From: Lophium mytilinum
Lineage: Eukaryota
Assembly (NCBI GenBank): GCA_010093605.1
Contig: MU004193.1
Location: 405,321 to 469,320 of the forward strand
DNA length: 64,000 nt
Direction of reading: 5' to 3'
Below, piece by piece: positions 24,691 through 58,606 of the stretch. Both the position numbers and the translations under genes were made by a program. Position 1 is the stretch's first letter; the number at the start of each line of letters is the position of its first letter. The notes beneath the pieces were generated by a model. It ran no database searches, was not told where the DNA came from, and worked only from the letters and a program-made list of their open reading frames with translations.

Positions 24691-25905
24691 TCAATGACAG
24701 TGATACTCGCTGACCCCCAGTCTCTCAACCTTCGAGATTGAGCTCATGTTGGTAGTCAATGGTATCTCGTCTACCTGGCGCGTCTCCGTATGAGGAGCTT
24801 TACGATTTGGGTCGACGAAACTCGGTAACGAAGGGGCCGTTGCTTTCGAGGCTGTTCTTGTAGTTCGGCCGACCCATCCAGACGCGGAACGATAAAGTAG
24901 TCGAAGCTTACTGTTGACAAATCCATCCTCTTTAGGGAGGTAGACGCGGAAGACAGGCAAGGAAGTGCAAATTACAGCAAATCCGAGATGGAGACCCGTC
25001 CACAGTGAAAGGCCGGCCATCGAGGTGATGGTGTCGTCTTTGCCCGGATGATAGCCGTAGACCATGCGGATGACGCCCGTTAAAATGACCCTGTTTCATT
25101 AGAAAGAATCTTGACGTGTGCAATGCAGAGACTCACAATCCTCCGGTCAGGAATATCGTTGCAATACCAAGTCTCTCTCGCAGTGGCAGCCTCAAATGCC
25201 AAATGATTCGAACTGGCAGACATACGAGCATCAAGTCCAAGCACGCATTGAAAATCTCGCTAGATAAGAATCCGGTTTGATTGTCAAGGCATTCTCCTTC
25301 AACGGTAGCGTCGAGCAGGGCAGCGATGGGCTTGCATTGGAACGACACGGTGAAGATGAGGCAAAGAAGCCAGAGGATAGACAGAGCACCAACGGTTTTG
25401 AGGCTCCATCCAAGCCACCGTTTGATGCTGAAGAGTCTGTAATACAGAAATATGACAGACATGCGCGCAGCGACTTCGCAAGCATCGGTCAAAAGGATTG
25501 AGGCATAAGCCGTCTGGAGTCGTTAGCAAGCCGTCTAGTCTCTCGTTGTGTAGTCATATTCTCAAGATATCCTCAGGACTCACCCGCAATGCATAATTCT
25601 GATCGGTAATAGAGAGTTCATGGGTCGGTATCCTTTTCACATGAGGTACGTTCTCTTCATGCCATGCCCTTTAGTATTAAGTCCACATATCATACTTTGA
25701 AAAGAAAGGATTTACCTAGAATAGTACAGGCGAAATCACCCCACATGAAGAGAAGCGCAGAGAATGAGATCCAATCATCCCATTTCAGGACTGCTTTGGT
25801 TCGCCTCCTTGCTAAAAACCGAAGGATGATAGCGGTCGTAGCCGCAAGACCCATGACAGCATGCAAAAGCCATATTTTGAGATACTCTCTATCCGCCTGA
25901 TCCAT
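24691..25905 (-). CDS. Pth11-like integral membrane protein (fungal rhodopsin-type domain, no CFEM), multi-exon
   Basis: LRFLARR...WDDW, RMSVIFLYYRLF, FQCKPI, DLMLVCLP..IWHLRL, AVICTSLP motifs. Confidence 0.85.
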
Positions 25906-26484
25906 TGTGGAATGGTAAAAGAAGTAAGATTCACGAAGAGGAGAGAGACACCTGAAAGTTGAAGAGCGCGGCGTATACCTTTTGTGGCCTACGTCCTTTA
26001 GTTCTCGATGTCGTGGAACGTTTCCTAGATCCCGAGTCACTAATAGTGTGTCACTTGAACCACCGCCGACGAGGAAGTGTGGCTCCACGAGAAAATTAAC
26101 TGATATCGGCTGCAGTCCGTGGAATCAGCCCACAGCTTCCGGGCCGATCACTCCTCCATACTCGATCATTGCATCATTGTATATCCTCGTGTTGTGTGCC
26201 ATGATCACAGAAAAGCTGTCCCATTCTTTGTACTCCCCGAGGAGTAGTTACAATACCCGGTCGCACAGAAGCCCTTCAAGAGCCAGATGGGACCCGAGTA
26301 AATCCCCGACACGGACTCCGGGATTTAATAGAGGTTGCTTCTTCTCTATTACGCACGGGTCATTGTGCACTTGCAGATGCAAGGAGCTTCGATGTATCTA
26401 TCAGAGAATAACGCAACCTCGTCTTCGCAGCCCATCAGAAACTCCCCTGAGAAACAGCTCAAATAGTGGCGTTATTTGGCTCAT

Positions 26485-27915
26485 ATGGCTAGCAGACTTT
26501 CGACACACATGACAAAAAGTCTAGAGGGCCTTCTTTCCAGACTCGCAGCCGTTACACAGCCCAGGGAGTCGTCAGCGGACCTTGTTGATCTCTCTTCTGC
26601 CGAGAACCTCCTAGTTCGAGACCAGGTCCGAGAGATATGCATCAACGCTGTTCAGGATCACCTGACCACTGACGTTAGTAGCCACAATCCCGTTCCTGGG
26701 CAGCAAGTTATTTTAGCTACTGACATTTCTCCAGGCCCTTTCTCAACTTCCGAGCTTTGGCGGAGATGTCGACACTCGCACGGCGTTGGCTTCTTTCTTT
26801 AGCGGCTACTTCCGACCAGCCAGTACTGTTTCTTTTGACCAAATCGTCCTCACTGCTGGCGCAGGAAGCTGCGTTGAAGCGCTGGTCTATAGCTTTTGTG
26901 ATGAAGGGGATAGTGTCCTTATTCCAGGTCCATATTGGTGTAAGTGGTGACTACTCCGGGCTATTCAACATAAGTAAAAGTAAACTGAGATAAGAAATCA
27001 GTCGGTTTCGAACCTTATATCAATCTACGTCCAAAAGTCAACATCGTCACAGCAAATCCTCAAAGTTACGCACATCACGCTACGGATCTGCTCGCCACCT
27101 TGCGCGCCACGTACGCCGCGACCGAGAACCCACAGCGTATCAAGGCAGTCATACTATGCAATCCACACAACCCGTTCTCGCAATGCTATCCAGAAAACAT
27201 CCTACGATCGTGTATGAGCTTCTGCCAGGAGTTCAACTTGCACTTCATTTCGGACGAGCTTTATGCGCTAGCCGAGATAAATCCCACTAAAGAGCAGAGG
27301 TCGAAATTTGTCTCTGCTCTCTCGCTCGCCTCCGATCCCAACGATCACGATGGGCTCATAGATCCCAGTCTTGTTCACGTAGTCTGGAGTGCAAGCAAGC
27401 TATTTGGGCTCAGCGGATTTAGAATTGTAAGCCATCCTTATCCATGAAGATGACCTTCTGATTTACATCCTTTCTAGGGCTGTTTGGTATCTCAGGCTAA
27501 CCCTCGAGTGCGGGCTGCTGTCTCACTGCTGACTTATTCCAACACCTCTTCGCTCAGCGCCATTGCTCTGAAAGCCCTTCTTTCATCGCTTGATCTTTCT
27601 TCCCTCATTAACGTCAGCTCGCAGCGCTTGACTGACTCATACTCGCGCTTCGTTGAACTATTTGAAGAACGTGGTATCGACTATCTACCGGCCAACTCGG
27701 GACTGTTTGTCTTTGCAAAACTTGGGAAGAAGGCGACCAATGCCGAAGAAGAAGCAATCTTCTTCGAGAAATTGAAATTTGGCGGTGTTATGGTCAGCCC
27801 AGGCAGATTCTACATTGGCTTAAGCACGGAGTTCGGATGGGCGAGGATCACGGTGGCAGTGCCATTGGAAATTGTCGAAGTCGCCCTGGAGAGGTTGAAG
27901 AGATGTCTTGAGTGA
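26485..27915 (+). CDS. PLP-dependent class I/II aminotransferase-fold enzyme, ACC-synthase/GliI-like, 4 exons
   Basis: DLSSAEN, TAGAG, GDSVLIPGPYW, CNPHNP, SDELYA, SASKLFGLSGFRIG (PLP lysine) and GWARIT. Three GT-AG introns. Confidence 0.88.
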
Positions 27916-28226
27916 ATATCTGGGAGCTGTGCACTGACAGGTACTGTTTCACATATAACTTCACCACTCCGCACAATATAGCTCTCTAATGCAGCTCTAA
28001 TAGTCTTCCAGAGTATTCAATCTGCCTTATTTACATCTATCAAGATGGGTGGAACTGAACAAGTACAGATACTGTATGGAACGCCCAGGCTTTCTTTAAG
28101 TAGCAGTAAGAGAGCATAGAGTCTACCCACATTTACAGTACTAGTTCCATTCTTAGTGCTATCATCTCATACTCCTTAATTATGTGCCACGACCTGTCAA
28201 CCTATACCCTCCTGAGAGTCCTCGAT

Positions 28227-30241
28227 TCAACCTGGCACCTTAATCTGCTTCGTTTTCCAAACCATCAGAGCGGCGAGCACACACACTCCAGCAAAGGCGG
28301 TAATAACTTCCATCTGCAAGCGATACCCTTCGACAAAAACTTCGTCCACGACAACTTTCACCGCGTGAGGAAATTGATGAATCACAGCCGTGGACTGCAA
28401 CAGTGCCTCTAGTTGCGTTGGTTCCAAAATCGAAGGCAGGTCCGATTTAAGCTTCGCGTTCATGAGACTAGTAGCCACCGAAAGACCAATGGTACTGCCA
28501 AACTGGCGAAACTGCATGATTGCACCTGTCGCCGTTGCTGTTTCAGACCGTTAGCGCTTGCTTCATTGACATCAGACATCTGCTGCGCTACTAAGCTACT
28601 TATGTCAGATAACGTACCTAGATCTTGCGTATCAACACTCAGCGGCGTCATAACAACTAAAGTCCCGAACATCATTCCGAGTCCTAAACCAGCAATGATC
28701 TCGCACCCGTACTGCGTTCCGGAAATCTCTTTTCCGGTGCCGTAAACGCAAAATAAGGACAGTCCGATCAACTGGAAACACGCTCCGGTAATGACGAAGT
28801 ACACTGGCGCACAAGCTTTCTGGCGTGATATAACCACATTTGCGAACACCGCGCCGAAAGGAGCGAAAAGCGCGTACGGGAGGAGTTGAAGACCGGATTG
28901 GAAAGGTGGCATATCGGAGATCATTTGCAGTTTCTGCGGGATGGTGACGACGAGGACACAGAAAGGTACGCCGAGAAATAATGAAACTCTGGTTTGATGT
29001 AAGCATGAAAGCCAGAGGTGAAAGAGACGTGAGAACTCACAGTAGCATGCCCATCCATGCCCTGTTATGCACGAAGCGCCATGGAAAGATGGGCTCTTGC
29101 ATATTGGGCCTGTTCGTAATATACCTTTCCCACAAAACGAATGATATAGCTAGAGCTGCGGAGAGTACTAGCAGCACAATGGTCGGCGCCGAGGACCAGG
29201 AAAATGCTGTAGAACTCTCGAGGAGAGATGTTACGAAGGTAAAAGAGGCGCCGATGAAAAGAAACGCTCCAAAAAAGTCCATCCGTCGTAGATTTGGTAA
29301 CAACGAATCTTGGAAGGGTGTCGATGCAGATTTTCGGTCGTGATGCGGGAAATTATTGGGGAGTGTAATGAAGAGTAGGATGATTGTTGACGCTCCGATC
29401 GGAACACTGATACGTGTCACCTTGATGATCCGTAGTGAGCTAAAAGAGTCTTACTTTATGAGGAATACCCAGCGCCAGGAAGCCTTCTCACTTATCAAGC
29501 CGCCGATAATTGGACCAAGCAATGTTGCTAATGCAACGACAGCAGAAACAATGGTCCCATAGAATGGATACTTGTGCTTAGGTACCATTTCAAAAACGAT
29601 AATGGAGGCTACGGAGAAGCATCCAGCACCTCCAAAGCCTTGGAAGGCTCGCAATATGACTCTGGAGTAGCGATTTAGTACTTTGGAACTCATAGGATAG
29701 GTAGTCTTAGAGGTCTTACAACTGCGTGATCGTCTGTGCAGCTCCACACCCTGCAGAAAATGCCGTAAAGCCAACAAGGGAGGCTGTTAGGGTCATCTTT
29801 CGTCCAATGATGTCGCTGAGCTTTGCCCATATAATGATCAATCCTTCAAGAGCGTTAAACACCCTCTTGGAGAAATACAAGAGTCTGAACTTGACATGCC
29901 TACCTGTATAAGTAGTGAGATATGCGACTATGACCCACCCCGTTCGACTGAAGGCCCGGAGATCATTTGAAATATCGACCAAGGCTGTGCTCACTACTGT
30001 AACTTCGAAGTTCGGTAGAAAGACCGAGCAGCAGACGCTTTTCGAATTAGTTTGTTGAGCAAATCGGGAGATAAAATGCATACCATAATGTTACGAGATG
30101 AAGTCTCCATCCCGTTAAATGGGTTCTTTCAAGAGCGCTGCCTCCTACTTCTACCTCAGTGACCTCATTGTATACAATCGGCTCCAAGGGCAGGATTGTC
30201 GATATTGGCGAGGAATCCTTTTCTATCTGTGTTTCTGCCAT
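28227..30241 (-). CDS. MFS efflux transporter (14-TMS DHA2-like), multi-exon
   Basis: EVTVVSTAL, WVIVAYL, KLSDIIGRK, RAFQGFGGAG, LGPIIGGLI, WRWVFLIN, QFRQFGSTIGLS. Confidence 0.9.
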
Positions 30242-30354
30242 CTTGATGCGTTCTGCATGAACTGCTTGCGCTTTCAAGAGACTAGTGACAATAACGACGT
30301 CGAGAGACCGTTTTCAAAGAGCAGTTCAGAGGGTATTTCTATTCATCGCCGAAG

Positions 30355-30372
30355 CTTTTCCGCGCGGAAAAG
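30355..30372. promoter_or_regulatory. Perfect 18-bp palindrome CTTTTCCGCGCGGAAAAG (CCG-N2-CGG core), candidate Zn2Cys6 site
   Basis: Lies about 115 bp upstream of the MFS ATG in a divergent promoter. The palindrome is seen directly; the function is inferred. Confidence 0.5.
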
Positions 30373-31068
30373 TCAACCTTACTGATGGTGTAGCCATAAT
30401 CAGCGTCAAACATAGTTGGACACCGAGGCAGGGCATCATGATTGTGAAATGTGCCACAGTGCGACCGTTATGGTGTTCCCATTCCATGCCGCACAACCAA
30501 AGGATCAATTACCCCCTCAATTACTCTATTTCGTTCCGGAACCAGATGCTCGGCTACAGATTCCTTCAGTCCCGTGGGACCAAAAGAGCATGTTGGAGTC
30601 GATCATTTCGTGTTTGATATCGTTACAACGTAACGATTCCGAATCAAAGTGTCTCGTTACAGATGTGACATATCCGCACGGTCCCTGTCGGTGTGTGCAG
30701 AGATGTAGGTAGAGAGCTAAGGCGATGAGATACCCTCTCGCGAATATACTGGCTGCCTGGAATGCTAACTTTCCACCCGATCGGAACTTCCGAAAGATCC
30801 ATAAGGTACCACAAGCATTTGCGAGATAGCGTACAGTTATCCATGACCCATCGTTGTAATCTACTCGGTCTCCGGGCCCCGTGCAAGGCAGACTATCACT
30901 ATCACAATACTGTAGGCTCGAAGGTAACCCTGTCGCGGCATCAAATGGTCTTAATATTACGTTCGAAATGACCCATCATCCTTCACACAGAGAGATCATC
31001 GATCAGAATCTCACGCACCTATCACCTTTAACGGTAGCGATTCTCAGTTTCTTCAGTATTGTTCAGAT

Positions 31069-32795
31069 ATGGCTTCCATACAATTTGAAGAAAGGACCGA
31101 TTTCCCGACCCCAATGCCTATTCATCGCCGTAAACAAGTTCTCGTCAACGTCGTAGATGGCCTGGCCAAGGTCAAGCCCCATGGGACCTACGCCTATCTC
31201 CCTATCTCCCCAACAGGATACGAGAAAGGATTCAGGAAGCTGACCTATCAAAAATTTGCGAATGCAGTTAACGGCCTTGCATGGTGGCTAACGACGCAGT
31301 TCGGAAAGAGCACGTCCTTCGAAGCTCTGACGTATGTCGGCCCAAATGACTTCCTACACAACGCGTTGATTCTGGCCTGTGCGAAGACAGGGTATAAGGT
31401 GAGAATCTTGACCGTTTCTCCCCTCGTTCATATTTTAACAGTGAGTTTTAGCTTTTTCTGGCCTCCTTTCGAAACCAGCGAGATGCACTCAAAGCACTTT
31501 TTGAGCAGATTGAAGTCAAGGCTGTACTCACCTCTGATCCAAAGTCAGAGCTCACAGCTAGATATCAAGAAGCGTCTCCGATGCCCGCATTCCAGGTCCC
31601 AAGCGTCGAGATCCTCCTGAAAGAAAGCTTTCCCCACTACCCTTACCACAAAACATTCGAGGAATCGAAGAATGACCCCCTGGTGATTTTCCACACTTCA
31701 GGAACGACTGGGTCTCCAAAGCCTGTCGTTTACACGAATGACTGGGTAGCAGCGTACATGCAAGCGATGCAAACACTTCCGCCGGAAGGCATGGAAATGA
31801 AAGACAAATACATGTGCGGAACTCGTTTTCTTGTGATGATGCCACCCTTCCACGCTGCAAACATCTTTACAGTTTTCTGGATCCCCTTTGCAAACGAGAC
31901 GACCATCATATACCCACCAAAGGCTCTTCCGCCAACACTCAAGACCTTCATAGAAGGAATTCAGAGCATTCAAGTCGACACAGCATTCATTCCACCCCAC
32001 TTCATCAGCCAGCTAGCTGCCAACGAAGACTTGCTCAACATTGTCTCTAATAACGTGGAAACGCTCTTCACAGCTGGCGGCAAAGCAGTAGATGCCCATG
32101 GCGATATCGTAGCCGCGAAAATGGCCGGCCAATACCTGACTACTTACGGCGCCACCGAGATTGGAAACACCCCAGACCTGCTACCAAAAGGTATCCCATC
32201 ATCCAAAACTTGGAGCTACATTTCTCCGCACCCAGCTGCGGGCTGGGATTTTCGCCTTCACAAGCAGACAGATACGCACACAATCTACGAAGCATTCATC
32301 GTGCGGAACCAGGACCCAGACGTGGAGCAGCCTGTTTTCAAAATGTTTCCCGAGCAACAGGAGTATTCGACTCGGGATCTCTACCTCCCACACCCCACAC
32401 ACCCAAATCTCTGGAAATGGGCCGGCAGAACCGATGACACTATTGTCCTTGCATCTGGCGCGAATGTGTCCCCCATGGTGATGGAAACCGGAGTCAGCGA
32501 GCATCCAGCCGTTCAGGGAGTCGTGATGATTGGGAGTGGACATTTGCGCCCCGCGCTCATTCTCGAGCCGAGAGATTCGGACATAGATGGGGAAGACCTC
32601 GTGGAAAATGTCTGGCCGACGGTTGAGAACTTGAATCAGAGTTATTTTGAGGATCATCGGATTCTAAGATCTCATATCTTGGTGACGGCGAGAGAAAGGC
32701 CGATGGCGAGGAGTATGAAGGGGAGTATTCAGAGGAGTATGACTGTGGATTTGTATGAGGTGGATTTAGAAGATTTGTATATGAAATCTGGGTAG
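31069..32795 (+). CDS. Stand-alone adenylation (ANL) enzyme resembling the A domain of fungal A-T-R NRPS-like reductases, with no T or R domain; one intron near 31399-31451
   Basis: IFHTSGTTGSPKP, YGATEIG, STRDLY, GRTDDTIVL and SMKGSIQR (A10 Lys). Stops at DLYMKSG, and a convergent gene begins about 360 bp later. Confidence 0.88.
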
Positions 32796-33159
32796 GGCAT
32801 TGGTCGTTTCTGTTGCAGGCGTTTCATCTGGTCTTAATTTTGTTCTCTTGTAGCTCCTACGCACACCTTCAAACAGCCTTCATATCATTCGATCACTTAG
32901 AACGCTCGGAAGGTGACCCACAACGCTAAATTCAAGGGACACCAACAATTCAAGGTCAGAAACTTTGCAGAAGTAGTGTTTGAAATTGGGGGTTGATGTT
33001 TTGTTTAAGGATTTTCGTTCACCGAGTTCAACTCATGAACGGATGTTCTCCTCCGCAGATCCTTTTTTTTTCGCTCGGAGACAGCATGGATCGCAGCTGT
33101 CAATGTGTGTCATCCGCTTAGACAATTTCCGGAGCCGAGTTCGGCCCCAGCTTCCCTCT

Positions 33160-34007
33160 CTACTTCGCATCGCCTGTAATCGCTCCCAACAGTTCCACAA
33201 GACGGTCCACCAATTGGACTGGTTGTTCAAGATGTGGAGAGTGAGACGAACCCTTCAAGATCATCGTCTTCTTAATGCCTCCAATCTCGACGAACTTCTG
33301 TTGAAGCTCATAAGGGAGTACCCTGTCTGCCTCTGTGAAGATGTACCCAAAGGTGCCCTGAAAATTCGGGTCATCATACGGGTCATAGTGGACGGGCAAG
33401 GCGAAACAGGAGTATGGCTGTCTGGGGAGTGCATTGGCCAGCCTTTCGGCTTCTTCGTCTGGGAGGTCGTGGAAAAGCATTGATTTTGCTTGCTGCTTTG
33501 GAATGACAACCCAGCCGGTAGATTTCTATAACGAGCTCGTTAGAGTCCATTTACGTGCGCAGTATTTCGGCCACTTACATCGTAATCAATCCAGTCGGGA
33601 AGGTTGTTTGGATCCATGCCCATAGCCGACATTGCTGATGTTCCTTTTCGAGCCACGAAGGAGGCGACCCAGAGTAGCGCAATAACACCGCCCTTCAGCC
33701 CATTCTCAGCCCTCTGCTTCTTGCTCAATCCCTCCACAGCGGACGGCCCGTAGATGCCTCCATATGAGTGCATGAACAGGACGACGTCTTTTCCTTCCTC
33801 GACAAGTGGAATGAGGACCTTCTCGCGGAGGTACTTCGCATCGAGGTTCATAGGCGGCATCACGGCTGGGTCATGTTCGGGGTAGCCCGGTGAGATGTCC
33901 CAAACGGTGGGAAAGCCTTTAGCCTTGAACGCCTGCATGACCGGGTCGAAGAACTCGACTGAAGGCCATCCGCCTGGGCAGATAGCCACGGTAGGTTTAG
34001 ATTCCAT
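33160..34007 (-). CDS. Alpha/beta hydrolase (2 exons), candidate thioesterase or acyltransferase
   Basis: PGGW oxyanion region, MHSYGG nucleophile elbow, TEADRVLP (Asp) and SSHSPHL (His). Confidence 0.88.
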
Positions 34008-35442
34008 GATATGTTTGGACAATTGCCTCGGAAGCAAGAGGGAGAGAGAGGCTGGGTGGCAATGGCAGTTGTGTCGGGGTGAAGTCGATGTCGACGTTGC
34101 GATGTTGCGAGTACTAAGTGCTGGAGGCCTAAAGTAGCCGTGTGACGTTGTGCAGACCAATCATCTGATAGACTCAAGTGGAACACCCGAGCGGCGCAGC
34201 GGGCGCAACACAGTATTACTTGTGTTCCCCCCCGATTGATAACTAGGGCGTGTGCAACCAAGGTTGCGTATTCGCGAGTCTCGGTTTGTACACCCGCCCG
34301 TCTACCAATTAGTGGCGAAAGTGCGCTATCTTATCCCCCGTTTATTGACAAGCCAGTTAGAGCAATAACCAGGCATTAGCGAATGTCTATATAATTAGTT
34401 GGTTTAGCCCCCGATTAGCGGTAATCAGCGAATCTCGACAAGGATTACGGTTGATGTTTTGAGGCCACAAGTTTTAGTTCAGCAAACGGAATCCTCTTTC
34501 AGAAATAATGAAGAAATGTAAAGCCGGAAACATAACCAACTGGAAAAATCGTCCAATCCATGCCTGTGAACCGTCCGAGCGGCGTAGCGGGCTGGCGGCT
34601 GTCGCTCAGTATCACCAATGGCGTGTCACAAGACAAAAGCTTCTACCCCTACAATTTAATCAACAACTATTAGATTGTATTTCCCGAGAAGTAAGGCTAA
34701 GGTGTAGTCACACCAAACTACCAGGCTACAGTCGAACGGATGACGGTTGCGTAAGCCTGTGGTCCGTGCATAAAGGCTCTTCTTCCTGCACGGGCTGCTT
34801 CTTACGCTCATACCCCCTCCATTCACCAGTCCTACACACATCCCAGCATGCTCCAGCTCCATTCCTTCGCCGGGTTTGAGAAGTCCGTGGGAGATCCTCC
34901 AAATCACGGTCGCCGAAGAATCGAGCCGGGTACTACTAGAATACCTGCCCGTTTGTCGTCATGTCAAGACCTAGGCGAACCAATCTATTCCATCGCTAGG
35001 ATGTTGTTGCCCTCGTGTATCGAGCTCGGATTCCGAGAGCATCAATTCCATACAGTGCGATGCCGTGTGGTTGGAACATCTCCCCCCTTACTTGCCGACC
35101 GGCCACGATAGGTAGTGAAGGGCTTGAGTGCAGTGGTCTTGATACCAGAGCTATGGAACACCGGTAGCACACCCACATTCGTCTATAGTATTCTTCACTG
35201 TATTTCGAGTTAGGCAAGTACTCACCGGCATGGGGCAAGGCAGCCTAGATGTAACCGTTGTCAAGAGAGCCCCCGAGACTCTACGAGACTTTGGAGCCTA
35301 ACTATCTTTACGGGGTTGCTAAGAAAATCCTCTCCTTTTATCCCATAGCTCTGTTTCCGAATTCCTCAAATTGTAGCGATCAATTTTTCAATCCTAGAAA
35401 CCCTTTACGAATGTGCTTTCGCATCATCGTGAAAACAGCCCA

Positions 35443-38400
35443 ATGTCTAACTCTTTTCCGGTCGAGCCTCTTGCAATCATCGGATTCTCCTTTCGATTTC
35501 CCCAAAATGCAACTTCCGCAGAAGGATTCTGGAAGTTCATGGATGAGAAAAGATGCGCTGCGGGAAAGGTCCCGAGAGAGAGATTTAGCCTTGATGCATT
35601 CTACCACGCAAGTAAGGAAAGAAGAGATACGGTAAATATACAAGAAGGGCACTTCATGGACGGAGATACAGGAGCTTTCGACGCCCCCTTCTTCTCCATC
35701 AGCCCCGCTGAAGCTGCAGCGATGGATCCGCAGCAGCGAGGTATGCTTGAAACATCTTACCACGCACTTGAGAATGGTATGTAACTCGCCCAAGCTGATC
35801 GCTTTTCTTTTGCATTCGCTAAACTTTTCGGACTAGCGGGACTCCCGCTCGAATCAGTCGCCGGGTCCAAAACAGGAGTGTACATCGGCTGCTTCTCAGA
35901 CGACCATAGAATTCTGACACTCAAAGACCCAGAGCGGCTATCTAAGTATGCCGGCACTGGAACGGAATTTTCGATCCTTGCGAACCGACTGAGCTGGTGG
36001 TTCGATTTCAAGGGTCCTAGTTTCAACCTCGATAACGCGTGTGCAAGCGGTTTGACCGCGTTTCATTTAGCTTGCCAATCACTCAGGAACAGAGAGACAT
36101 CAATGGTAAGCGACTTCCATTTGCGCATTACAGGCGCGATACTAAGGCACGTCCACTTCAGGCTCTTGTAGGCGGCAGCAACCTCATGACCTCAATCGAA
36201 CAGTTTCTCCTTCTCTCGAATCTTTCTATGCTCTCTCCTTCGGGCCGTTCATTTAGTTTTGATCATCGCGCCAATGGCTACGGCCGTGGCGAAGGCTACG
36301 GTGTCATCATCATCAAAACACTTGCGGACGCTCTTGGCAGCGGCGATTGCATCCGCGCAGTCGTGAGAGCAACCGGGGCGAACCAAGACGGGAAGACTCC
36401 CAGTTTGACGTCACCCAGCCAGACGTCCCAAGAAGCATTGATTCGAGAGACGTATGAGCGGGCCGGCCTAGACTTGAAAGCAACGGCCTTCGTTGAGGCG
36501 CATGGGACTGGAACGGCTATGGGTGATCCAATCGAGGCTCGGGCACTTGGTCATGTGCTTGGAGCTGAAAAGAGTACGGACGATCCTCTATATATGTACG
36601 TCCTTGATCGCGCAGCGTTTGGGGGTAGTGGCTAATGCACAAACCGTCCATATAGTGGCGCGGTTAAGTCAAATATTGGCCATCTTGAGGGCGCGAGTGG
36701 GATCGCTGGCATCATCAAAACGATCCTGACTCTTGAGCGAGGAATAATCCCGCCAAACGCAAATTTCGAGAAACTCAATCCGGAAATCGATGCTAAAGCG
36801 TTGAATATCACAGTGAGTCTGATTTGTCAAACCATGCCAATCTAAAATTGACACAAGTGATACAGTTCCCCCAAGAATCTACACCATGGCCACACGACGG
36901 GCAACGGCGAGCATCAATCAACTCGTTCGGCTTCGGTGGATCCAACTCACATGCAGTTCTCGATGATGCCTGCAATTTCCTAAAATCTAGAGGGTTCAAT
37001 GGAAATCACCAATCAATTGATCTTGATGCAAGATGTGGAAGTTCTGGGCCGATTACCTTCCAAGCTTTCGCCTCCAGGGTTTCTGATCCGGCTCCGCCAA
37101 AGCTGCTCGCCTGGTCTGCGTTTGACGACAACGCCGTGTCCCGACTGATCCAAGCATATGCAAGTTACTTTGCAGCCGGTCCACCTAGAGCGCTGTCATC
37201 ATCCTATCTCGATAATTTTGCTCACACACTATCAGTCCGACGGACCGCGCTTCCTGTGAGAAGTTTCGCGATCGTGAAATCACCCTCACAGTTACGCGAC
37301 TTAGCAAATGCTACCTCAAAGCCGGTCAGAGCGAGACGGCATCATGGCCTGGCATTCGTGTTCACAGGCCAAGGCGCACAATACAGTCGAATGGGAATTG
37401 ATCTTTGCATCTTTCCGATATTCAAATTGAGTTTAGAGAAATCCAATCTGTGCTTTCGTGAGTACGGCGGCGAGTGGGATTTGCTCGGTAAGCCATAGTA
37501 TGGTGCCTTGTCGTCGATCCATGTACACTGTTCTGCCATTGCTTGTGGTGCTCCAAGAAACTTACCGAAGTCTGGAGCGACAAACAGCATAGCTAAGTGT
37601 GTACCTCCATCAGCAACCGCCTGATGTAGCCCAGCAAGCTTGGTGATAAGTCCGATCGACGAAGTTTAAAATGATCAAAATGTATCGAGGAGCTTCAAGC
37701 AGCGGCAGACAAATGCACACGGATCGGTGACGAGATATTGTATCTTTCGAACCCCTCCCTCTATTTTTACTGATGGCATACAGAGGAGCTAGCGAAGCCA
37801 GAACCGGAATCAAATATCCACGAACCAGAATTTAGCCAGCCTATTTGCACAGCACTACAGATTGCATTAGTAGATTTGTTACGGGATTTTGGCGTCATTC
37901 CACAGAAAGTGGTCGGTCATTCTTCAGGCGAGATCGCCGCTGCGTCAGTACATCAACTACTCTTATGCGATTTGGAGAAGCTGACTTAAACAGATACTCA
38001 ATCGGAGCACTCTCATTCTCTTCCGCCTTGAAAGTTGCCTTCTTCAGGGGCAAGGTGTCTGGAAGTCTTGCCAGGACCCCGGGTATCCAAGGTAGCATGC
38101 TAGCAGTTGGGCTCTCTGAGACTGAAGCGGGCGTCTACTTGGACGTGCTCCGGAGAGAGAAACCCTCGCAGAAGGCAGTGGTGGCCTGCATCAACAGTCA
38201 CAAGAGCATGACGCTTGCAGGTGATGCGATTGCGATCAGTACACTCAAAAAGCAGCTCGACGAAGATGGTGTCTTCGCACGCAAGCTCCACGTCAATGTC
38301 GCATATCATTCCCATCATGTCAAACCATTCTCCGAAGAATATCGTCAATCTCTGAACGGCCTAGAAGCTAGAGATCAGCACGATGAGACACAGCCTGTGA

Positions 38401-41400
38401 TGATTTCATCCGTGACAGGGCGGCCGGTGGATCCAAGCGAACTGGTAAAAGTGGAGTATTGGGTCAGTAATATGGAATCTTCCGTGAGGTTCATGGATGC
38501 TGTCAGCCAACTAGTTTCCTCCCCATGCGTCTCAAACGGCCTGAACGGCCAGAGAAGTACAAGCGAAGTCTCTGACATGTTAGAAATCGGCCCCCATGCT
38601 GTTCTACAAGGGCCGGTAAAGGACACTCTGACGGCACTAAATCAGGCTACAGCAATCCAGTACGGCTCGGTGCTCAATAGAAGGGTTGGTGGCGTAGAGT
38701 CATTCTTGAATGCTATGGGGCGCTTTTATTGTCTTGGCTACCCCGTTGACCTGGCCGCAATCAATGGACTATCGGAGAAGCAAAAGGACGAAACAAAAAT
38801 GCTTACCGATCTTCCTTCATATCCATTTGACCATTCAAAAGTCTATTGGAACGAGAGTCGACTAGGACGAGCCTTCCGTTTCCGAAAAGAAGCTCGCCTA
38901 GATCTACTGGGGCTACCAATCGCGGACGGTGGTCCTCCAGAGCTAGGACGGAGGTGGCGAAAAATCACAAGGATATTTGAGACTCCATGGGTGCAGGACC
39001 ATGTGGTATGTCTCCCTAATGATAGAGGTGCTGAAAGAGCTAATCGCTACAGATCAGCGAGACGACTATCTACCCTGCAGCAGGCATGCTTTGTATGGCG
39101 CTTGAGGCTATTCGGCAGATGGCTGATTCAGCAAAGAAGATCGCGGCGTACACTGTCAGAGATGCCGAGTTTCTCACTGCCCTTCGCTTGTCTTCTAAAG
39201 ATGAAGGGACGGAGTCGCATTTCTACGTACGCCCGCTGAATGACACGACTCATGAAGGAGATCTAACGGCAGAGTTCAAGCTGTATACGTTTCTAGAGGG
39301 TGTCTGGGCCGAGAATTGCCGCGGCACTATCCAGCTTTCATATGATGAGGAAGACATTAACCCTAGCCTGTCTCTGGAGATTCGCGAGAATATTCAAACA
39401 TGCACTCAGAGCGTCGATCGAAACAGTATGTACAGCGAACTGTTCGCTATGGGGATGCAGTACGGGCCAACCTTTCAATGTATGGACAGTATCTCTGTGG
39501 GACAAAGCAAGGATGCATTGGCCGTGGTTCGTACCTTTCAATGGATGGAGGAGCCACAGGATCATATCATCCATCCCGTCACCCTGGACTGCATCTTCCA
39601 TCCCACGCTAGTTGCGCTTACCAAGGCCACACATGAAAAGTCACGAACAGCTGTCCCGACAAGGCTACACAACCTGAGGCTATCTGGGGGTGGGATTTTT
39701 CATCCACTCACTTCGAAAGTCGAAGTGTATGCCAAGGTCGAGACACAAACTTCCAGAACTGCCACAGCTTCGTTGTATGGAAGCGACACTCGAGGCAATG
39801 CGCTAATATCCGTTGAATCATTGGAAGTTACTTTTGTTGACGACGGCAGCAAGGAAGAAGTCGGGACGACTCTACAGCATATATGCTACAACATTGATTG
39901 GAAGGTAGACATTGACATGCTTGATCAGTTCAATGTAGCAGATTACTGTCGATTTCATCTTAGAACCTCTTGCCACCGAAATCCAAACGATCGAATAAGG
40001 CCCGCTCTCGAGAGTTTGATGGACCTCATGGCTTTTAAGAATCCAGGACTCCGGGTGCTGGAGATTGGTGCAAGAGAAGGATCAACCACGCGAGAAGTTC
40101 TCAAGAGTGCTGCGATACGAACAGTAGACGGGCAGAAGTTGCCGGCTATTTCACTCTATCATCTTACTGACACCGAACCTGATCTCTTGGAAGCTGCCAA
40201 AAAGAAATTTGAGGATGAAGGCATTAAGATGGAATTCTCAATCCTTGACATCAATGAAAATCTGACGGATCAAGGCTTTCAAGAGGGGGTTTACGATGTT
40301 ATCATCACCAATGACGTGAGTTATGTCCCTGCCAGCTACTATCTTTACGCCTATTAACTCCCTTTACTTCAGCCTCAGCATTTGACCAGTCTGACGATGG
40401 CTAATATCAGAAAGCTCCTCAGAAAGTACGTATCATCTGCCGAAAGAACTAAAACCTTATCTAACATCACAGTGAGGGAAAACTTTATATGGTCGGTGTG
40501 GCGGAAGAAGATGTATGCAACCAAGTTCTGTCTCAAAATGGGTTCTCGCAAACGGGCATCTTCGTCTGCGACAGCCAACATCCGGTCAATCAGAGAATGA
40601 GTGTCGCTTTGTTTAGTGCTCTCGATAATAACAACCAGGAGATAGCCTGGCCCGATACTATCATCGTAGTCAACGACGAGACTTCGACAGACGCCCAGAT
40701 CGCGAATACCTTGCATGAAGCACTTCAACACTCGGGGCTTTCAACCATCTCGACAGTACCACTTCGTGAGGTTTCCACTATCGACTTGCATGGCAAGTTC
40801 TGCATCTTTCTAGCAGAGCTATCCAGACCGCTTCTGGCTGACTTGGATGAATCCACGTATTTGGAGCTTCGTTCCTGGCTTTCGAATGCTGGGGGAGTTC
40901 TCTGGGTGCATAGCAACGACAACCCAGCCTCCCATATGATCACTGGTGTTGCTCGCGTCTGTCGATCGGAGAATCCTGATGTCAAACAAGTCACGTTTGC
41001 GGTCGATACATCATCTTCAACCACAGTCAGCAACATTCTTCGTATTTTCCGGGAAACAATTACGTCTTCGGTCGATGAGATTGAACTGGAGTATAAGGAG
41101 ATAGACGGTCTTTTGGCAGTAAACAGGGCCATCCCCGCGCCTTATATCGATGAGAACATCCGGAGGAATGTAGCTCCACTGGAAGAATGCTCGAGAGTCC
41201 ATGTAAGTCCTCTTCTTGAAGGGCCAGGTGTCATATACTAATTTAATTCAGGCCACGATCCCAGCCTTTCCAGCCTCCTACTCATTCCCTGAGTACTCCA
41301 CTTACGTCCTCGCTGGGGGCTTTGGCGGTATCGGGCCAACGATCTGTCGCTGGATGGCAAGCAGAGGTGCCAAAAACTTCATCGTCTTGTCTCGCTCCGG

Positions 41401-42475
41401 TCCCAAATCTGATGCAGCTAAGATGTTGCTGCAAGATCTCTCTGTGCAGAATGTGCGAGTCGAACATCCAACCTGCGATATTTCATCCAAGGAACAGGTC
41501 AAAGCAGCATTAGCACTGTGTGCTGGAAAGCTTCCACCAATCAAGGGATGCATTCAAGCATCCTTGATACTCCAGGTATTCCAATCTTTCATTCCAACCC
41601 GAATAATTCCAGCTCCTGACTAGTACGCTAATCTCCATAAGGACTCCGTCTTCGAAACAATGACCTACAATGAATGGACAACCGCAATAGCCCCCCGCAT
41701 GCAGGGAACCAGCAATCTCCATGAACTCTTGCCAAACAACATGGATTTCTTCCTTCTCCTCTCTTCCATCAACGGTATACTAGGCGCCCGCTTCCAAGCC
41801 AACTACGCAGCTTCAAACACTTTTCTCGACGCCTTTGCGCATACGCATTACAAACAACGCGTCGTCTCCATTGATCTGGGCTGGTACGCCGGCACTCTCG
41901 CCACCAACGAATTCTTGAAGGGAAGATTTGAAGGCCTTGGATGCGTATACCAAGTGCCGGACTCGCAACTGTTAGGCTTGCTTGACTACTACTGTGATCC
42001 TACACGATCGGTTGACATCGGAAAGTGTCAAACAATGATTGGTGTCGCACCTCCGTCCTACGCAAGAGCTCAGGGCAAAGAATTCCCGGCATTGCTGAAG
42101 AGGCCGATGTGGAGAGTTATGAATTCTCTCGATACCGCAATCAGTGCTAAGGCCCAGACGGAAACATCGGAGCAAAAGCCCCTCCCGCTTTGCACACTCC
42201 TAGCCTCCACGGAATCAATCGCCGAAGCAGCTGATCTTATATGCAATACCATGTTAGGGAGGTTGGCGGAGCAATTAGGCATTCATGAGGAAATGATTGA
42301 CAAAGAAAAACCTTTTCATGTGGCGGGAGTGGATTCCCTGATGGCGGTCGAATTGAGAACTTGGTTCAGGAGAGCAATTGGAGTGAGCATCAGCGTCTTC
42401 GAGATCATGGGAAATGGGGGTATGTTTGGACTGTGTGTAAAAGCGGCGGAGAAAGTGGAATATAACAGGAAGTAA
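35443..42475 (+). CDS. Reducing type I iterative PKS: KS-AT-DH-(degenerate MT)-KR-ACP, ER absent; many introns
   Basis: [57 protein letters not shown]...YPAAG and HPVTLD. MT remnant [18 protein letters not shown] and [22 protein letters not shown]. Confidence 0.95.
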
Positions 42476-57787: not shown

Positions 57788-58606
57788 TTTCGATTGAGTT
57801 GCCTCGTAGCTGAAATGTCGAGGTTAGTAGATTAGCGTTATATATGCGCAGTATTCTCCATGCACTTGTCCGTTGTAAGACCTGCAGTATCGGTTGCGGA
57901 GGCTTGCTTATGTCTGGATTTAGGCAGTAGTTTTCAGGGCCTATCCCTTAGTTGTAGAGAGCGCACTCGGGATATTGTTGAAGGAGCGTCGTCAATTCAA
58001 ACACCGTAACACAGTCGTGACCAACATCCCTCATCGAAGATTGTGACAGGCGTGGACTCTCTGTCGCTCTGCTGTCGTTACGGAGTGGACAAAGGCGGCG
58101 TCGGAGATGTTGTAGCGGCATCCCCGACAATCTGCCTCGAGCTTCATGACGTCTATTGCTACATCCGCGCAATCAACACACGGCTAGCTACGGGCAACGG
58201 AATTCATCTGATTAATGAAGACTTCACGTTCAACTAACGGATTTACGGCTAAATCTGATCGCGAAGAAACATTCTGTCTTCAGTAGATTGGAGAACGTCC
58301 AATGGAGACTGATATTCTGTAACCCATGTGACCCTAGCGATGAGATAAATACACAACTAAATAGCAATCAAGAAACCTGTACCGTTTGACCATCCCTAGT
58401 GCAGCTCGCCATTCAGCTATGCAAACCCGAGTGCGAACAATGAATGCACTTTCCCAGCAATAATCACGCCAAATGAGAGCCGAATCGGGCCCACCCTGAG
58501 AATAAAGAGCAACAGCATAAGCTACGCAGTGTCATCCAAACTCAGGTATCAAATGCACATGAGGTCCCTGACAGAACGTCAAGCGGCTTCCGTGACTCTG
58601 AATGTC

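What the first reader, a model, noticed from the sequence alone, without database searches (positions are those of the whole stretch)
24691..42475. Six-gene cluster: ER-less reducing PKS + stand-alone A domain + ACC-synthase-like PLP enzyme + hydrolase + MFS + Pth11-like protein
Seen: six apparently intact genes in three head-to-head pairs, with no NRPS C domain, trans-ER, P450 or other oxidase. Known: reducing PKSs without a release domain need a trans-acting partner; ANL enzymes adenylate acids; ACC-synthase-fold PLP enzymes perform eliminations or C-S lyase chemistry (GliI). Inference: the PLP enzyme makes an unusual amino acid or amine, the A domain activates one partner, and the hydrolase releases or transfers the polyene chain. 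This would give a polyketide-amino acid hybrid without a PKS-NRPS. I do not recognise this combination as a characterised pathway.
Basis: partly seen in the sequence, partly recalled or inferred. Interest (0 to 1): 0.85.

Follow-up and report, generated by a model that had tools for sequence, protein, structure and literature searches.

The report
Conserved fungal polyene-PKS cluster, unknown product
This is a real, transcribed fungal gene cluster that pairs a polyene-making polyketide synthase with a release hydrolase, a lone acid-activating enzyme and an ACC-synthase-like enzyme; it probably makes a polyene amide without any peptide synthetase, but its product is unknown.

Summary
Six genes lie in three divergent pairs at 24691-42475: a Fung_rhodopsin 7TM gene, an ACC-synthase-like PLP enzyme, an MFS transporter, a stand-alone adenylating enzyme (AMP), an alpha/beta hydrolase, and an ER-less HR-PKS (KS-AT-DH-psiMT-psiKR-KR-ACP, 2063 aa). 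No C domain, ER, P450 or oxidase was found in the window.

My spliced PLP and AMP models are identical to deposited Lophium mytilinum proteins. The PKS model aligns end to end with the Mytilinidion resinicola orthologue. Transcript contigs skip 14 modelled introns in PLP, hydrolase and PKS.

Accession numbers or locus tags place PKS-x-AMP-x-PLP, or parts of it, together in Mytilinidion, Melanomma, Lojkania, Amylocarpus, Sclerotinia nivalis and Clonostachys.

AMP is a T- and R-less relative of fungal A-T-R "NRPS-like" reductases. It has His at the position where amino-acid-activating domains carry Asp, so it most likely activates a plain carboxylic acid.

The best reading is an NRPS-independent polyene amide: PKS, then hydrolase release, then adenylation and amidation with an amine supplied by the PLP enzyme. 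There are precedents: the proposed clonorosein CrsD and the proven E-64 Cp1D plus PLP decarboxylase. The chemistry here is inferred only. I rate it a new variant of a known kind, of moderate interest.

The parts
24691..25905 (-). Fung_rhodopsin-domain 7TM membrane protein (Pth11-related, no CFEM domain found). Exons 25696-25905, possibly 25584-25652, 25137-25513 and 24691-25090.
   Evidence: PF20684 at 2e-26 and 2.4e-4 on two exons. All 30 Atlas hits are Fung_rhodopsin clusters, best score 0.97. Splice model. The middle junction is unresolved. The only spliced contig here is on the + strand.
26485..27915 (+). ACC-synthase-like fold-type I PLP enzyme, 418 aa. Exons 26485-26673, 26735-26939, 27002-27426 and 27478-27915.
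   Evidence: Pfam Aminotran_1_2. The model is identical to P0102. The best solved relatives are plant ACC synthases at E 1.4e-38. All 3 introns are skipped by RNA contigs.
28227..30241 (-). MFS transporter, 556 aa, 7 exons: 30084-30241, 29904-30037, 29720-29843, 29455-29661, 29041-29406, 28618-28988 and 28227-28537.
   Evidence: MFS_1 at 1e-15 on one exon, with weaker hits on two others. Splice model. Collinear tblastn hits in L001 and L002. No RNA or orthologue check was possible.
31069..32795 (+). Stand-alone adenylating enzyme (ANL A domain with an AMP-binding_C_3 C-terminal subdomain), 557 aa. Exons 31069-31398 and 31452-32795.
   Evidence: PF00501 plus PF23562 with no PP-binding or reductase domain. 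The model is identical to P0154. The core motifs are invariant or nearly invariant in 16 homologues. The next relatives are about 1050-1090 aa A-T-R proteins.
33160..34007 (-). Alpha/beta hydrolase, 264 aa, with a Ser (MHSYGG), Asp, His triad read from the sequence. Exons 33579-34007 and 33160-33525.
   Evidence: Abhydrolase_6 on both exons. Atlas score 0.98 to ascomycete Abhydrolase_6 clusters. The intron is skipped by an RNA contig with CT..AC ends. There are only non-significant PDB hits to plant esterase/HNL-type hydrolases.
35443..42475 (+). Highly reducing PKS without ER, 2063 aa, 12 exons. Domains: KS 35464-36770, AT 37355-38735, DH 38946-39853, degenerate MT 40040-40497, structural KR 40756-41106, KR 41297-41884 and ACP 42248-42424.
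   Evidence: Pfam per exon and on the orthologue P0039. The model aligns over 1-2062 with P0039. Ten introns are skipped by RNA contigs and one is matched by a loose end. Catalytic motifs were located. The MT carries a deletion of about 30 aa and a degenerate motif I.
20100..22101 (+). Possible extra member: a 4-coumarate-CoA-ligase-like acyl-CoA ligase ending in AKL, a peroxisomal PTS1-type tripeptide. The start is not modelled.
   Evidence: PF00501 plus PF13193 on three ORFs. The C-terminal residues were read. Membership in the cluster was not tested.
55433..57823 (-). Zn2Cys6 / Fungal_trans transcription factor beyond the AT-rich block. It is a possible regulator.
   Evidence: PF00172 and PF04082. 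Its link to the cluster was not tested.

Best explanation
The region is a functional, evolutionarily conserved biosynthetic gene cluster for an NRPS-independent polyketide conjugate, most likely an N-polyenoyl amino acid or amine (a polyene amide).

**Shown**
- The genes are intact.
- PKS, hydrolase and PLP enzyme are transcribed and spliced.
- The PKS has competent KS, AT, DH, KR and ACP motifs, no ER and a crippled methyltransferase. It should therefore build an unbranched, unsaturated (polyene or hydroxy-polyene) chain that it cannot release itself.
- The ANL enzyme has all the adenylation motifs but no carrier or reductase domain.
- The AMP-x-PLP gene spacing (x is the MFS gene in the window) is kept across two fungal classes. 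A PKS lies beside it in three other species; one of these, Clonostachys, is in a third class.

**Inferred**
1. The alpha/beta hydrolase frees the chain from the ACP as a carboxylic acid.
2. The stand-alone A domain adenylates that acid and acts as a carrier-independent amide-bond synthetase.
3. The acyl-AMP is captured by an amine or amino acid supplied by the ACC-synthase-like PLP enzyme. The partner could be ACC or another SAM- or methionine-derived amino acid, or a transamination product.
4. The MFS pump exports the product.
5. The rhodopsin-like membrane protein is accessory or merely adjacent.
For: **Gene reality**
- Two models are identical to deposited proteins.
- The PKS is collinear with P0039.
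- There are 14 splice joints in RNA contigs.

**No ER or release domain**
- No PF00107, PF08240, PF13602, thioesterase or reductase hit was found, or in P0039.
- The protein is 2063 aa long.

**Methyltransferase decay**
- Motif I reads GAREG in the window and GAGEG in Mytilinidion, against GAGTG in P0046 and P0040.
- Both the window's PKS and the Mytilinidion orthologue carry a deletion of about 30 residues.

**A domain**
- The A3, A5, A7, A8 and A10 residues are invariant or nearly invariant, and the His at the A4 position is invariant, in 16 of 16 homologues (the motif names are recalled ANL knowledge).
- 37 of 38 length-matched homologues carry PF00501 plus PF23562, and none has a characterised name.
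- Of the 150 best representatives, 90 are 900 aa or longer.
- All 4 typical long relatives tested by Pfam have AMP-binding, AMP-binding_C_3 and NAD_binding_4, and 3 of them have PP-binding above threshold. A fifth, P0186, has the same set behind an N-terminal O-methyltransferase.

**Synteny**
- Mytilinidion: PKS KAF2807319, AMP ..321, PLP ..323.
- Melanomma: AMP ..542, PLP ..544.
- Lojkania: AMP ..722, PLP ..724.
- Amylocarpus: PLP ..582, AMP ..584.
- Lophium: PLP ..664, AMP ..666.
- Sclerotinia nivalis: OCU04_001576, 001580 and 001582.
- Clonostachys chloroleuca: PKS V2G26_010660 and AMP V2G26_010662.

**PLP tree**
- The AMP-linked proteins lie in one 26-member clade, cut off from the fungal 'ACC synthase'-named group by a 100/99 branch.

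**Precedents**
- PMC11153888 (sections 14 and 15 read) proposes that the stand-alone adenylate-forming CrsD amidates a PKS22-derived acid with beta-alanine or GABA. That cluster has no NRPS, and it also holds MFS genes and a GPCR-like protein.
- PMC12568646 (passages) shows biochemically that the fungal ANL enzyme Cp1D is an amide-bond synthetase. Its cluster also encodes a PLP enzyme that makes the amine.
Against: - No product, enzyme assay or knockout exists for any orthologue found.
- The role of the PLP enzyme is open. The motif aligned to the ACC-synthase QDYHG box reads LPSFGG. The first ~40 residues, where I recall plant enzymes carrying a YFDGW-type motif, did not align with any listed ACS structure. 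The clade is separated from fungal ACS-like proteins by a long branch. It may therefore not use SAM at all.
- The nearest relatives of the A domain load a carrier protein rather than an amine. Trans-loading of the PKS ACP, or CoA ligation, is not excluded.
- The S. nivalis PKS neighbour has a full MT and an ER, so the chain is not always a polyene.
- Adjacency in other species is inferred from consecutive accession numbers or locus tags. Their DNA was not read, and the genes counted as 'x' were not seen.
- CrsD, IboA and Cp1D could not be fetched, so homology of AMP to them is untested.
- The clonorosein role of CrsD is itself only a proposal.
Confidence: 0.4

Rival explanations
1. This is an amino-polyketide route. 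The hydrolase releases the chain. The ANL enzyme only re-activates it as an acyl-CoA, or loads a starter acid onto the PKS ACP. The PLP enzyme is an ordinary aminotransferase that converts a keto group of the polyketide into an amine. The product would be a polyketide amine or alkaloid rather than an amide conjugate.
For: The PLP enzyme belongs to aminotransferase class I/II, and aspartate, tyrosine and kynurenine aminotransferases are among its solved relatives. The ACS-type QDYHG box is not kept. The best solved relative of AMP is a CoA ligase, at E 2.6e-7. Its closest long relatives load a carrier domain.
Against: ACC synthases score about 24 orders of magnitude better than aminotransferases. 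The PKS has no reductase domain to give an aldehyde, and no oxidase is present to install a keto acid. No CoA-dependent acyltransferase that could use an acyl-CoA is present in the window.
Confidence: 0.2
2. This is keto-acid logic, as in terrequinone (TdiD/TdiA, recalled). The PLP enzyme transaminates a proteinogenic amino acid to an alpha-keto or aryl-pyruvic acid. The A domain activates that acid. The hydrolase works as an acyltransferase, as recalled for Fma-AT in fumagillin, and joins the polyenoyl chain from the ACP to the partner as an ester.
For: AMP descends from the NRPS-like clade. No separate thioesterase is present, so the hydrolase is the only candidate for chain transfer.
Against: There is no carrier domain for the activated keto acid other than the PKS ACP. 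The PLP enzyme is much nearer to ACC synthases than to aromatic aminotransferases. The hydrolase shows only non-significant likeness to plant methyl-esterase/HNL-type hydrolases. Nothing links it to known acyltransferases.
Confidence: 0.12
3. The PLP enzyme is a GliI-type C-S lyase acting on a thiol conjugate of the electrophilic polyene. This would give a sulfur-containing polyketide.
For: C-S lyases appear among the solved relatives, at E about 1e-11. One homologue is auto-named 'aminotransferase GliI'.
Against: No glutathione transferase, gamma-glutamyl cyclotransferase, dipeptidase or NRPS is present in the window. The GliI name is an automatic label on a Sclerotinia borealis protein, not a tested function.
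Confidence: 0.03
4. The genes are neighbours by chance and do not form one pathway.
For: In Lindgomyces the nearest AMP and PLP homologues (about 40-55% identical) lie on different contigs. Distant AMP homologues in five metagenome loci have only an MFS gene beside them, in two of the five.
Against: The same order and spacing recur in six other species of three classes. PKS, hydrolase and PLP transcripts occur in the same RNA assembly.
Confidence: 0.05

Closest known systems
Clonorosein (crs) cluster of Clonostachys rosea (PMC11153888; PKS22 knockout in PMC6177402)
   Same: It combines an HR-PKS with a stand-alone adenylate-forming enzyme of about 540 aa, MFS transporters and a GPCR-like membrane protein. 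It has no NRPS or C domain. The products are polyketide acyl chains amide-linked to small amino acids, and the ANL enzyme is proposed as the amide synthetase.
   Different: CrsE is 2529 aa; the paper's text as read does not list its domains. The crs cluster has no ACC-synthase-like PLP enzyme and no alpha/beta hydrolase of this type. It holds 5-oxoprolinase, an oxidase, tubulin-tyrosine ligase, arylesterase and aldo/keto reductase genes instead. The role of CrsD is a proposal, not an assay. Homology of AMP to CrsD was not tested. A separate Clonostachys locus (P0046/P0155) is the better match to this window.
E-64 clusters cp1/cp2 of Aspergillus (PMC12568646)
   Same: A stand-alone fungal ANL enzyme (Cp1D) is proven to adenylate an acid and amidate it with an amine. 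A clustered PLP enzyme (Cp1C) makes that amine. The route is NRPS-independent.
   Different: The acid is an epoxysuccinyl-amino acid, not a polyketide. The PLP enzyme is a decarboxylase, not ACS-like, and is dispensable in the host. There is no PKS. Sequence relation to AMP was not tested.
Fusaric acid (FUB) cluster of Fusarium (recalled, no call)
   Same: It holds an HR-PKS, a trans hydrolase, an ANL enzyme of the PF23562-type NRPS-like clade, a PLP enzyme that brings in the amino-acid part, and an MFS. It makes a polyketide-amino acid hybrid without PKS-NRPS.
   Different: Fub8 keeps its T and R domains and makes an aldehyde. Fub7 is of the O-acetylhomoserine sulfhydrylase family and forms a C-C bond. 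Further oxidoreductases and amino-acid supply genes are present.
Plant ACC synthases (PDB 7dly, 1b8g, 1m4n, 1iax)
   Same: These are the best solved relatives, at E 1e-38 to 5e-32 over nearly the full length. The Lys of SxSK, the SDE(I/L)Y, NPxNP and GFR(V/I)G motifs, the C-terminal Arg and the AEN motif are all kept.
   Different: The QDYHG box is replaced by LPSFGG. The N-terminal segment does not align. The protein lies in a fungal clade far from the proteins named ACC synthase. SAM use is untested.
Fungal NRPS-like A-T-R carboxylic acid reductases
   Same: They share the A-domain core and the AMP-binding_C_3 subdomain, at 35-40% identity over the whole AMP protein.
   Different: AMP ends after the A domain, with no PP-binding and no NAD_binding_4. 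It cannot reduce or hold its substrate.
ER-less HR-PKS with trans-acting hydrolase or acyltransferase (fumagillin Fma-PKS/Fma-AT, LovB/LovG; recalled, no call)
   Same: An iterative PKS without a release domain is served by a separate alpha/beta-fold enzyme. The polyene chain follows from the missing ER.
   Different: Those pathways have no ANL or PLP partner. The hydrolase families were not compared.

Membership tests
Fungal iterative highly reducing PKS (ER-less subtype) | KS, AT, DH, KR and ACP domains with their catalytic residues | tested here: met
   The motifs [47 protein letters not shown] and GVDSL were located. The meaning of these motifs is recalled.
Fungal iterative highly reducing PKS (ER-less subtype) | No enoyl reductase between the structural and catalytic KR parts | tested here: met
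   No PF00107, PF08240 or PF13602 hit appeared on any ORF or on the orthologue P0039. The related S. nivalis PKS P0040 does show PF00107.
Fungal iterative highly reducing PKS (ER-less subtype) | Active C-methyltransferase | tested here: not met
   Motif I reads GAREG instead of GAGTG, and there is a deletion of about 30 residues relative to P0046 and P0040. The Pfam MT hit scores only 23.7 bits, under the cut-off of 30.
ANL adenylating enzymes | Core motifs A3 (TSGTTG.PK), A5 (GxTE), A7 (Asp), A8 (GRxDD) and A10 (Lys) | tested here: met
   These residues are invariant or nearly invariant in 16 homologues. PF00501 scores 104 bits on P0154.
NRPS-like A-T-R reductases | Carrier (PP-binding) and thioester reductase (NAD_binding_4) domains after the A domain | tested here: not met
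   P0154 has only PF00501 plus PF23562 and ends at residue 557. The long relatives have both domains.
Amide-bond synthetases (McbA / Cp1D type) | Direct amidation of the acyl-adenylate without a carrier or CoA | not testable with these tools
   This needs an enzyme assay. Cp1D, CrsD and IboA sequences could not be fetched, so even homology is untested.
ACC synthase | PLP-binding Lys, Asp/Tyr, Asn, phosphate Arg and carboxylate Arg of the ACS/AAT fold | tested here: met
   SASK, SDELY, NPHNP, GFRIG and GWARI are aligned to ACS7 and conserved.
ACC synthase | ACS-specific determinants: Glu of AEN, Tyr of the QDYHG box, and the N-terminal aromatic motif (recalled) | tested here: inconclusive
   AEN is kept. 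The QDYHG position reads LPSFGG. The first ~40 residues did not align with any listed ACS structure. The list of determinants is from memory.
ACC synthase | Conversion of SAM to ACC and methylthioadenosine | not testable with these tools
   This needs an assay.
Alpha/beta hydrolase | Fold family hit and a Ser-Asp-His triad | tested here: met
   Abhydrolase_6 hits both exons, each just under the cut-off. Atlas score is 0.98. MHSYGG, ADRVLP and SHSPH were read from the model. The triad assignment is by inspection.
Pth11-like receptors | Fung_rhodopsin 7TM domain | tested here: met
   PF20684 scores 93.4 bits against a cut-off of 27.
Pth11-like receptors | N-terminal CFEM domain as in Pth11 itself (recalled) | tested here: not met
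   There is no CFEM hit on any ORF of the gene.
Clonorosein-type cluster | HR-PKS plus stand-alone ANL enzyme, with no NRPS or C domain, plus MFS and a GPCR-like protein | tested here: met
   Gene content was compared with Table 3 of PMC11153888. This is likeness of content only, not orthology.

The most novel reading that the evidence does not exclude
The AMP-MFS-PLP trio is a portable 'amidation cassette'.
- An A domain that lost the T and R domains of a carboxylic-acid reductase has become a carrier-free amide-bond synthetase.
- Its amine partner is made by a distinct clade of ACC-synthase-like enzymes that still perform SAM-type gamma-elimination.
- In this fungus the product would be an N-polyenoyl-ACC (or a related cyclopropyl or vinylglycine-type amino acid). 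That would be a fungal counterpart of coronatine or jasmonoyl-ACC conjugates.
- The cassette has been joined to different HR-PKSs in Dothideomycetes, Leotiomycetes and Sordariomycetes.
Probability: 0.12. Interest if true: 0.8.

Novelty: new variant of a known kind. Interest (0 to 1): 0.5.

Why it matters
Fungal amide natural products are usually credited to NRPS, PKS-NRPS or PKS-C enzymes. Carrier-independent ANL amide-bond synthetases in fungi were first proven only in 2025, and for polyketides they are so far only proposed.

This window offers a compact five-gene core that is transcribed and kept in order in several fungal classes. It could test that proposal directly. It could also give a function to a whole clade of ACC-synthase-like enzymes and to the T/R-less branch of the NRPS-like A domains.

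For genome mining, the AMP-x-PLP pair is a usable beacon for polyketide conjugates. I expect (not tested here) that rules keyed to NRPS domains would miss the amide-forming step. If AMP and PLP turn out to be unnecessary, this is an ordinary orphan PKS cluster.

Tried and rejected
- **Earlier notes of the scan:** three look-ups by place, sequence and words returned nothing.
- **Whole genome:** none is held.
- **RNA:** 'no RNA holder listed'. The one run, X1, is only guessed to be RNA. Its contigs do skip introns. There was no cover over 28066-32953 (MFS and AMP), and I draw no conclusion about their expression.
- **Metagenome scan with the AMP alignment:** this gave five loci with 31-37% identical homologues. 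Two had an MFS gene beside them. None had a PKS, PLP or hydrolase within the held flanks. They are too distant to bear on co-conservation.
- **Solved structures:** there was no hit for hydrolase exon 1 or for the 63-aa first PLP exon. Hydrolase exon 2 gave only non-significant hits, E 0.02 or worse, to polyneuridine aldehyde esterase, SABP2 and HNL, which I treat as a lead only.
- **Literature:** seven searches found no paper describing this gene combination or any metabolite of Lophium or Mytilinidion from it. Bipolamide biosynthesis is not described in the seven papers that mention the compound, which I saw as listings only.
- **AK-toxin idea** (AKT1 carboxyl-activating enzyme plus AKT2 hydrolase, recalled): passages of PMC8102738 gave no domain detail and the sequences could not be fetched, so I dropped it as untestable.
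- **Alpha-oxoamine-synthase release (fumonisin or curvulamine type):** rejected, because the PLP enzyme is ACS-like, not KBL/AOS-like.
- **Gliotoxin-type C-S lyase:** kept only as a 3% rival.
- **Not run:** Complex prediction, structure prediction and fold search. No claim of binding is made, and a fold match would not separate the hypotheses.
- **Rhodopsin-like gene:** three splice models were built. None could be checked with Pfam as a whole protein.

Full report
**What is there**

The window is fungal DNA with short GT..AG introns. A Pfam scan of all 129 stop-to-stop ORFs of 60 aa or more between 24.0 and 43.1 kb found six genes in three divergent pairs.
- A Fung_rhodopsin 7TM gene on the minus strand (2e-26).
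- A class I/II aminotransferase-fold gene on the plus strand.
- An MFS transporter on the minus strand.
- An AMP-binding plus AMP-binding_C_3 gene on the plus strand.
- An Abhydrolase_6 gene on the minus strand.
- A PKS on the plus strand.

No condensation domain, enoyl reductase, P450 or flavin oxidase appeared. None appeared among 129 ORFs of 90 aa or more in the flanks either.

I built splice models by enumerating frame-compatible GT..AG introns:
- RHO 24691-25905
- PLP 26485-27915 (418 aa)
- MFS 28227-30241 (556 aa)
- AMP 31069-32795 (557 aa)
- HYD 33160-34007 (264 aa)
- PKS 35443-42475 (12 exons, 2063 aa)

**Checks on the models**

- The PLP model is letter-for-letter P0102 and the AMP model is letter-for-letter P0154. 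Both are deposited proteins of Lophium mytilinum, so the window is from that species or a near-identical strain.
- The PKS model aligns from residue 1 to 2062 with the 2063-aa Mytilinidion resinicola protein P0039, at 79.7% identity with 4 gaps.
- One public run (X1, kept as contigs, kind only guessed) holds 84% of the sampled words of the PKS-hydrolase stretch.
- Laid on 24400-42700, its contigs skip 14 of my introns at exactly the modelled borders, with GT..AG or, for the hydrolase, CT..AC ends. That covers all 3 PLP introns, the hydrolase intron and 10 of 11 PKS introns, including the unusually long 296-nt intron in the AT domain.
- The eleventh PKS intron is matched by an 11-letter loose end equal to the end of exon 1.
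- The run therefore contains spliced RNA of PKS, hydrolase and PLP enzyme.
- Contigs did not cover MFS and AMP. I draw no conclusion from that.

**The PKS**

- The domain order is KS-AT-DH-(MT remnant)-structural KR-KR-ACP.
- The active-site motifs of KS, AT, DH, KR and ACP are present.
- No ER family hits the window's ORFs or P0039.
- The methyltransferase is decayed. Motif I reads GAREG (GAGEG in Mytilinidion) against GAGTG in two relatives with full MT domains. Both Mytilinidiales proteins lack about 30 residues of the domain.
- There is no thioesterase or reductase domain.
- The enzyme should make an unbranched, unsaturated chain and needs help to release it.

**The hydrolase**

- It is a 264-aa Abhydrolase_6 protein with a readable Ser-Asp-His triad.
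- It has no significant solved relative.
- Its role in chain release is inferred from position and from recalled precedent: LovG, the brefeldin thiohydrolase, the maleidride hydrolases and Fma-AT.

**The adenylating enzyme**

- All ANL core motifs are conserved across 16 homologues, including the A10 lysine. The residue at the position of the amino-group-binding Asp of amino-acid-activating A domains is an invariant His. This points to a plain carboxylic acid substrate; that interpretation rests on recalled ANL knowledge.
- In a length-matched search, 37 of 38 hits share PF00501 plus PF23562, and none has a characterised name.
- An exhaustive search with P0154 gave 4459 hits at E of 1e-3 or better. 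Of the 150 best representatives, 90 are 900 aa or longer, 38 are 500-699 aa, 10 are 700-899 aa and 12 are under 500 aa.
- I ran Pfam on six of these representatives.
  - All 4 typical long ones (1061-1088 aa) have AMP-binding, AMP-binding_C_3 and NAD_binding_4. Three of them have PP-binding above threshold.
  - A fifth, P0186 (1303 aa), has the same A-T-R set behind an N-terminal O-methyltransferase domain.
  - The sixth, P0159 (657 aa), has only the two A-domain families.
- AMP is therefore a stand-alone A domain of the fungal A-T-R (carboxylic-acid-reductase-like) clade, without carrier and reductase.
- Its best solved relative is only 4-chlorobenzoate CoA ligase, at E 2.6e-7.

**The PLP enzyme**

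- Plant ACC synthases are by far the best solved relatives (E 1.4e-38 to 5e-32). Aspartate aminotransferases follow at 1e-14 and C-S lyases at 1e-11.
- The Schiff-base Lys, the SDELY, NPHNP and GFRIG motifs, the carboxylate Arg and the AEN motif are kept.
- The box aligned to QDYHG reads LPSFGG. The first ~40 residues did not align with any listed ACS structure.
- In a maximum-likelihood tree of 35 homologues, the window's protein sits in a 26-member clade, separated by a long 100/99 branch from the fungal proteins labelled ACC synthase.
- Within that clade, the proteins known to sit next to an AMP gene form two groups, one Dothideomycete and one Leotiomycete. A third group is a 17-member Pleosporales clade of unknown linkage. 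In the 3 members of that clade that I aligned, the Glu of AEN is Gln or His.
- 'ACC-synthase-like' is therefore right as a fold and subfamily statement. ACC synthase activity is open.

**Co-conservation**

Direct reading of other fungal genomes was not possible with the tools. Source accessions and locus tags are consecutive along deposited scaffolds, and they give a consistent picture.
- Mytilinidion: PKS KAF2807319, AMP ..321, PLP ..323. This is the window's order, with one-gene gaps where hydrolase and MFS lie here.
- Melanomma: AMP ..542, PLP ..544.
- Lojkania: AMP ..722, PLP ..724.
- Amylocarpus (Leotiomycetes): PLP ..582, AMP ..584.
- Lophium itself: PLP ..664, AMP ..666.
- Sclerotinia nivalis: OCU04_001576 (PKS), 001580 (AMP), 001582 (PLP).
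- Clonostachys chloroleuca (Sordariomycetes): an ER-less PKS V2G26_010660 (46.7% identical) and AMP V2G26_010662 (52% identical).

In each species the paired proteins also share one contig length.

Against this:
- In Lindgomyces the nearest homologues are on different contigs.
- The S. nivalis PKS has a full MT and an ER. What is conserved is the AMP-x-PLP unit beside an HR-PKS, not one PKS type.
- The identity of the 'x' genes in other species is inferred, not seen.

**Comparison with what is known**

Seven literature searches found no description of this combination. Two papers set the frame.
- Yu et al. 2024 (PMC11153888; abstract and sections 3.5 and 4 read) describe clonoroseins. These are polyketide acyl chains amide-linked to beta-alanine or GABA. 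Their cluster has an HR-PKS (PKS22, proven by knockout in PMC6177402; passages read), a 538-aa stand-alone adenylate-forming enzyme CrsD, MFS genes and a GPCR-like protein. It has no NRPS. CrsD is proposed, not shown, to be the amide synthetase.
- Liu et al. 2025 (PMC12568646; passages read) prove that the fungal ANL enzyme Cp1D is an amide-bond synthetase. Its cluster carries a PLP decarboxylase that supplies the amine.

What is new here is the set of partners:
- an ER-less PKS;
- a hydrolase of an uncharacterised family;
- an A domain derived from A-T-R reductases;
- an ACS-like PLP enzyme of its own clade.

The fusaric acid cluster (recalled) is a further parallel with different enzyme families.

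**Mechanism and odds**

- I put 0.9 on this being one real, conserved biosynthetic unit.
- I put 0.4 on the specific route: polyenoyl-ACP, then hydrolase, then free acid, then AMP adenylation and direct amidation with a PLP-derived amine, then export.
- Rivals: an amino-polyketide route with AMP as a CoA or ACP ligase and PLP as a transaminase (0.2); keto-acid activation with ester transfer (0.12); a C-S lyase route (0.03); chance adjacency (0.05).
- The remainder is unassigned.

**Surroundings**

- Upstream lie a 4CL-like acyl-CoA ligase ending in AKL (about 20.1-22.1 kb) and a His-rich DUF7728 membrane protein.
- Directly 3' of the PKS is a 13-kb block of 27-38% GC with RIP-type dinucleotide indices. 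The cluster itself shows none.
- Beyond that block lies a Zn2Cys6 factor.

**Verdict**

I rate the finding a new variant of a known kind and a good genome-mining lead rather than a surprise.

Noticed in passing
window 25070-25943 (intron 25646-25724, + strand): An RNA contig crosses the rhodopsin-like gene but is spliced on the opposite strand, with a 79-nt GTACGT..CTAG intron. It does not skip that gene's own modelled introns. No + strand ORF of note is present. It may be an antisense RNA or a long 5' leader of the PLP gene.
   Followed up: partly
window ~20100-22101 (+): A second ANL gene of the classic 4-coumarate-CoA-ligase type (PF00501 plus PF13193) ends in AKL, a peroxisomal-targeting-type tripeptide. 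It lies about 2.6 kb upstream of the six genes and might belong to the pathway.
   Followed up: partly
window 22726-23619 (-): A DUF7728 protein with a long His-rich stretch, a C-terminal membrane span and an acidic tail. An upstream exon appears to carry a signal peptide.
   Followed up: no
window 42600-55400: A 13-kb AT-rich block (GC 27-38%) has TpA/ApT of 1.28-1.40 and (CpA+TpG)/(ApC+GpT) of 0.54-0.91. These are RIP-like values, and no Pfam hits fall in it. It abuts the PKS stop codon. The cluster itself has normal indices (0.66 and 1.26).
   Followed up: partly
window 55433-57823 (-): A Zn2Cys6 / Fungal_trans transcription factor is the first gene beyond the AT-rich block. It is a candidate cluster regulator cut off by repeat decay.
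   Followed up: no
window 37488-37783: A 296-nt intron lies inside the AT domain of the PKS, five to six times longer than the other ten (47-66 nt). An RNA contig confirms it.
   Followed up: yes
P0040 (Sclerotinia nivalis OCU04_001576): The PKS next to the AMP and PLP homologues in S. nivalis has a full methyltransferase and an ADH_zinc_N (ER) hit. The AMP/PLP pair therefore accompanies HR-PKSs of different reducing type. That gene model looks truncated, with no KS, KR or ACP.
   Followed up: partly
P0121, P0116, P0107 (members of the Pleosporales PLP clade): In the 3 members of the 17-member sister clade that I aligned, the Glu of the AEN motif is replaced by Gln or His. The AMP-linked proteins aligned keep Glu. 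This is a possible marker of a change of function.
   Followed up: partly
window 33579-34658: The RNA contig carrying the hydrolase runs about 650 nt upstream of its start codon into the 1.4-kb region shared with the PKS. That divergent promoter region is transcribed.
   Followed up: no
window 2754-3893 (-), 14578-15580 (+), 17386-17889 (-), 58827-60544 (-), 61501-63999 (+): Other genes in the window are a Homeobox_KN gene, an AA9 lytic polysaccharide monooxygenase, a HET-domain gene, a subtilase with an I9 propeptide, and a large Arm_4 / Laminin_G_3 protein that runs off the window end.
   Followed up: no
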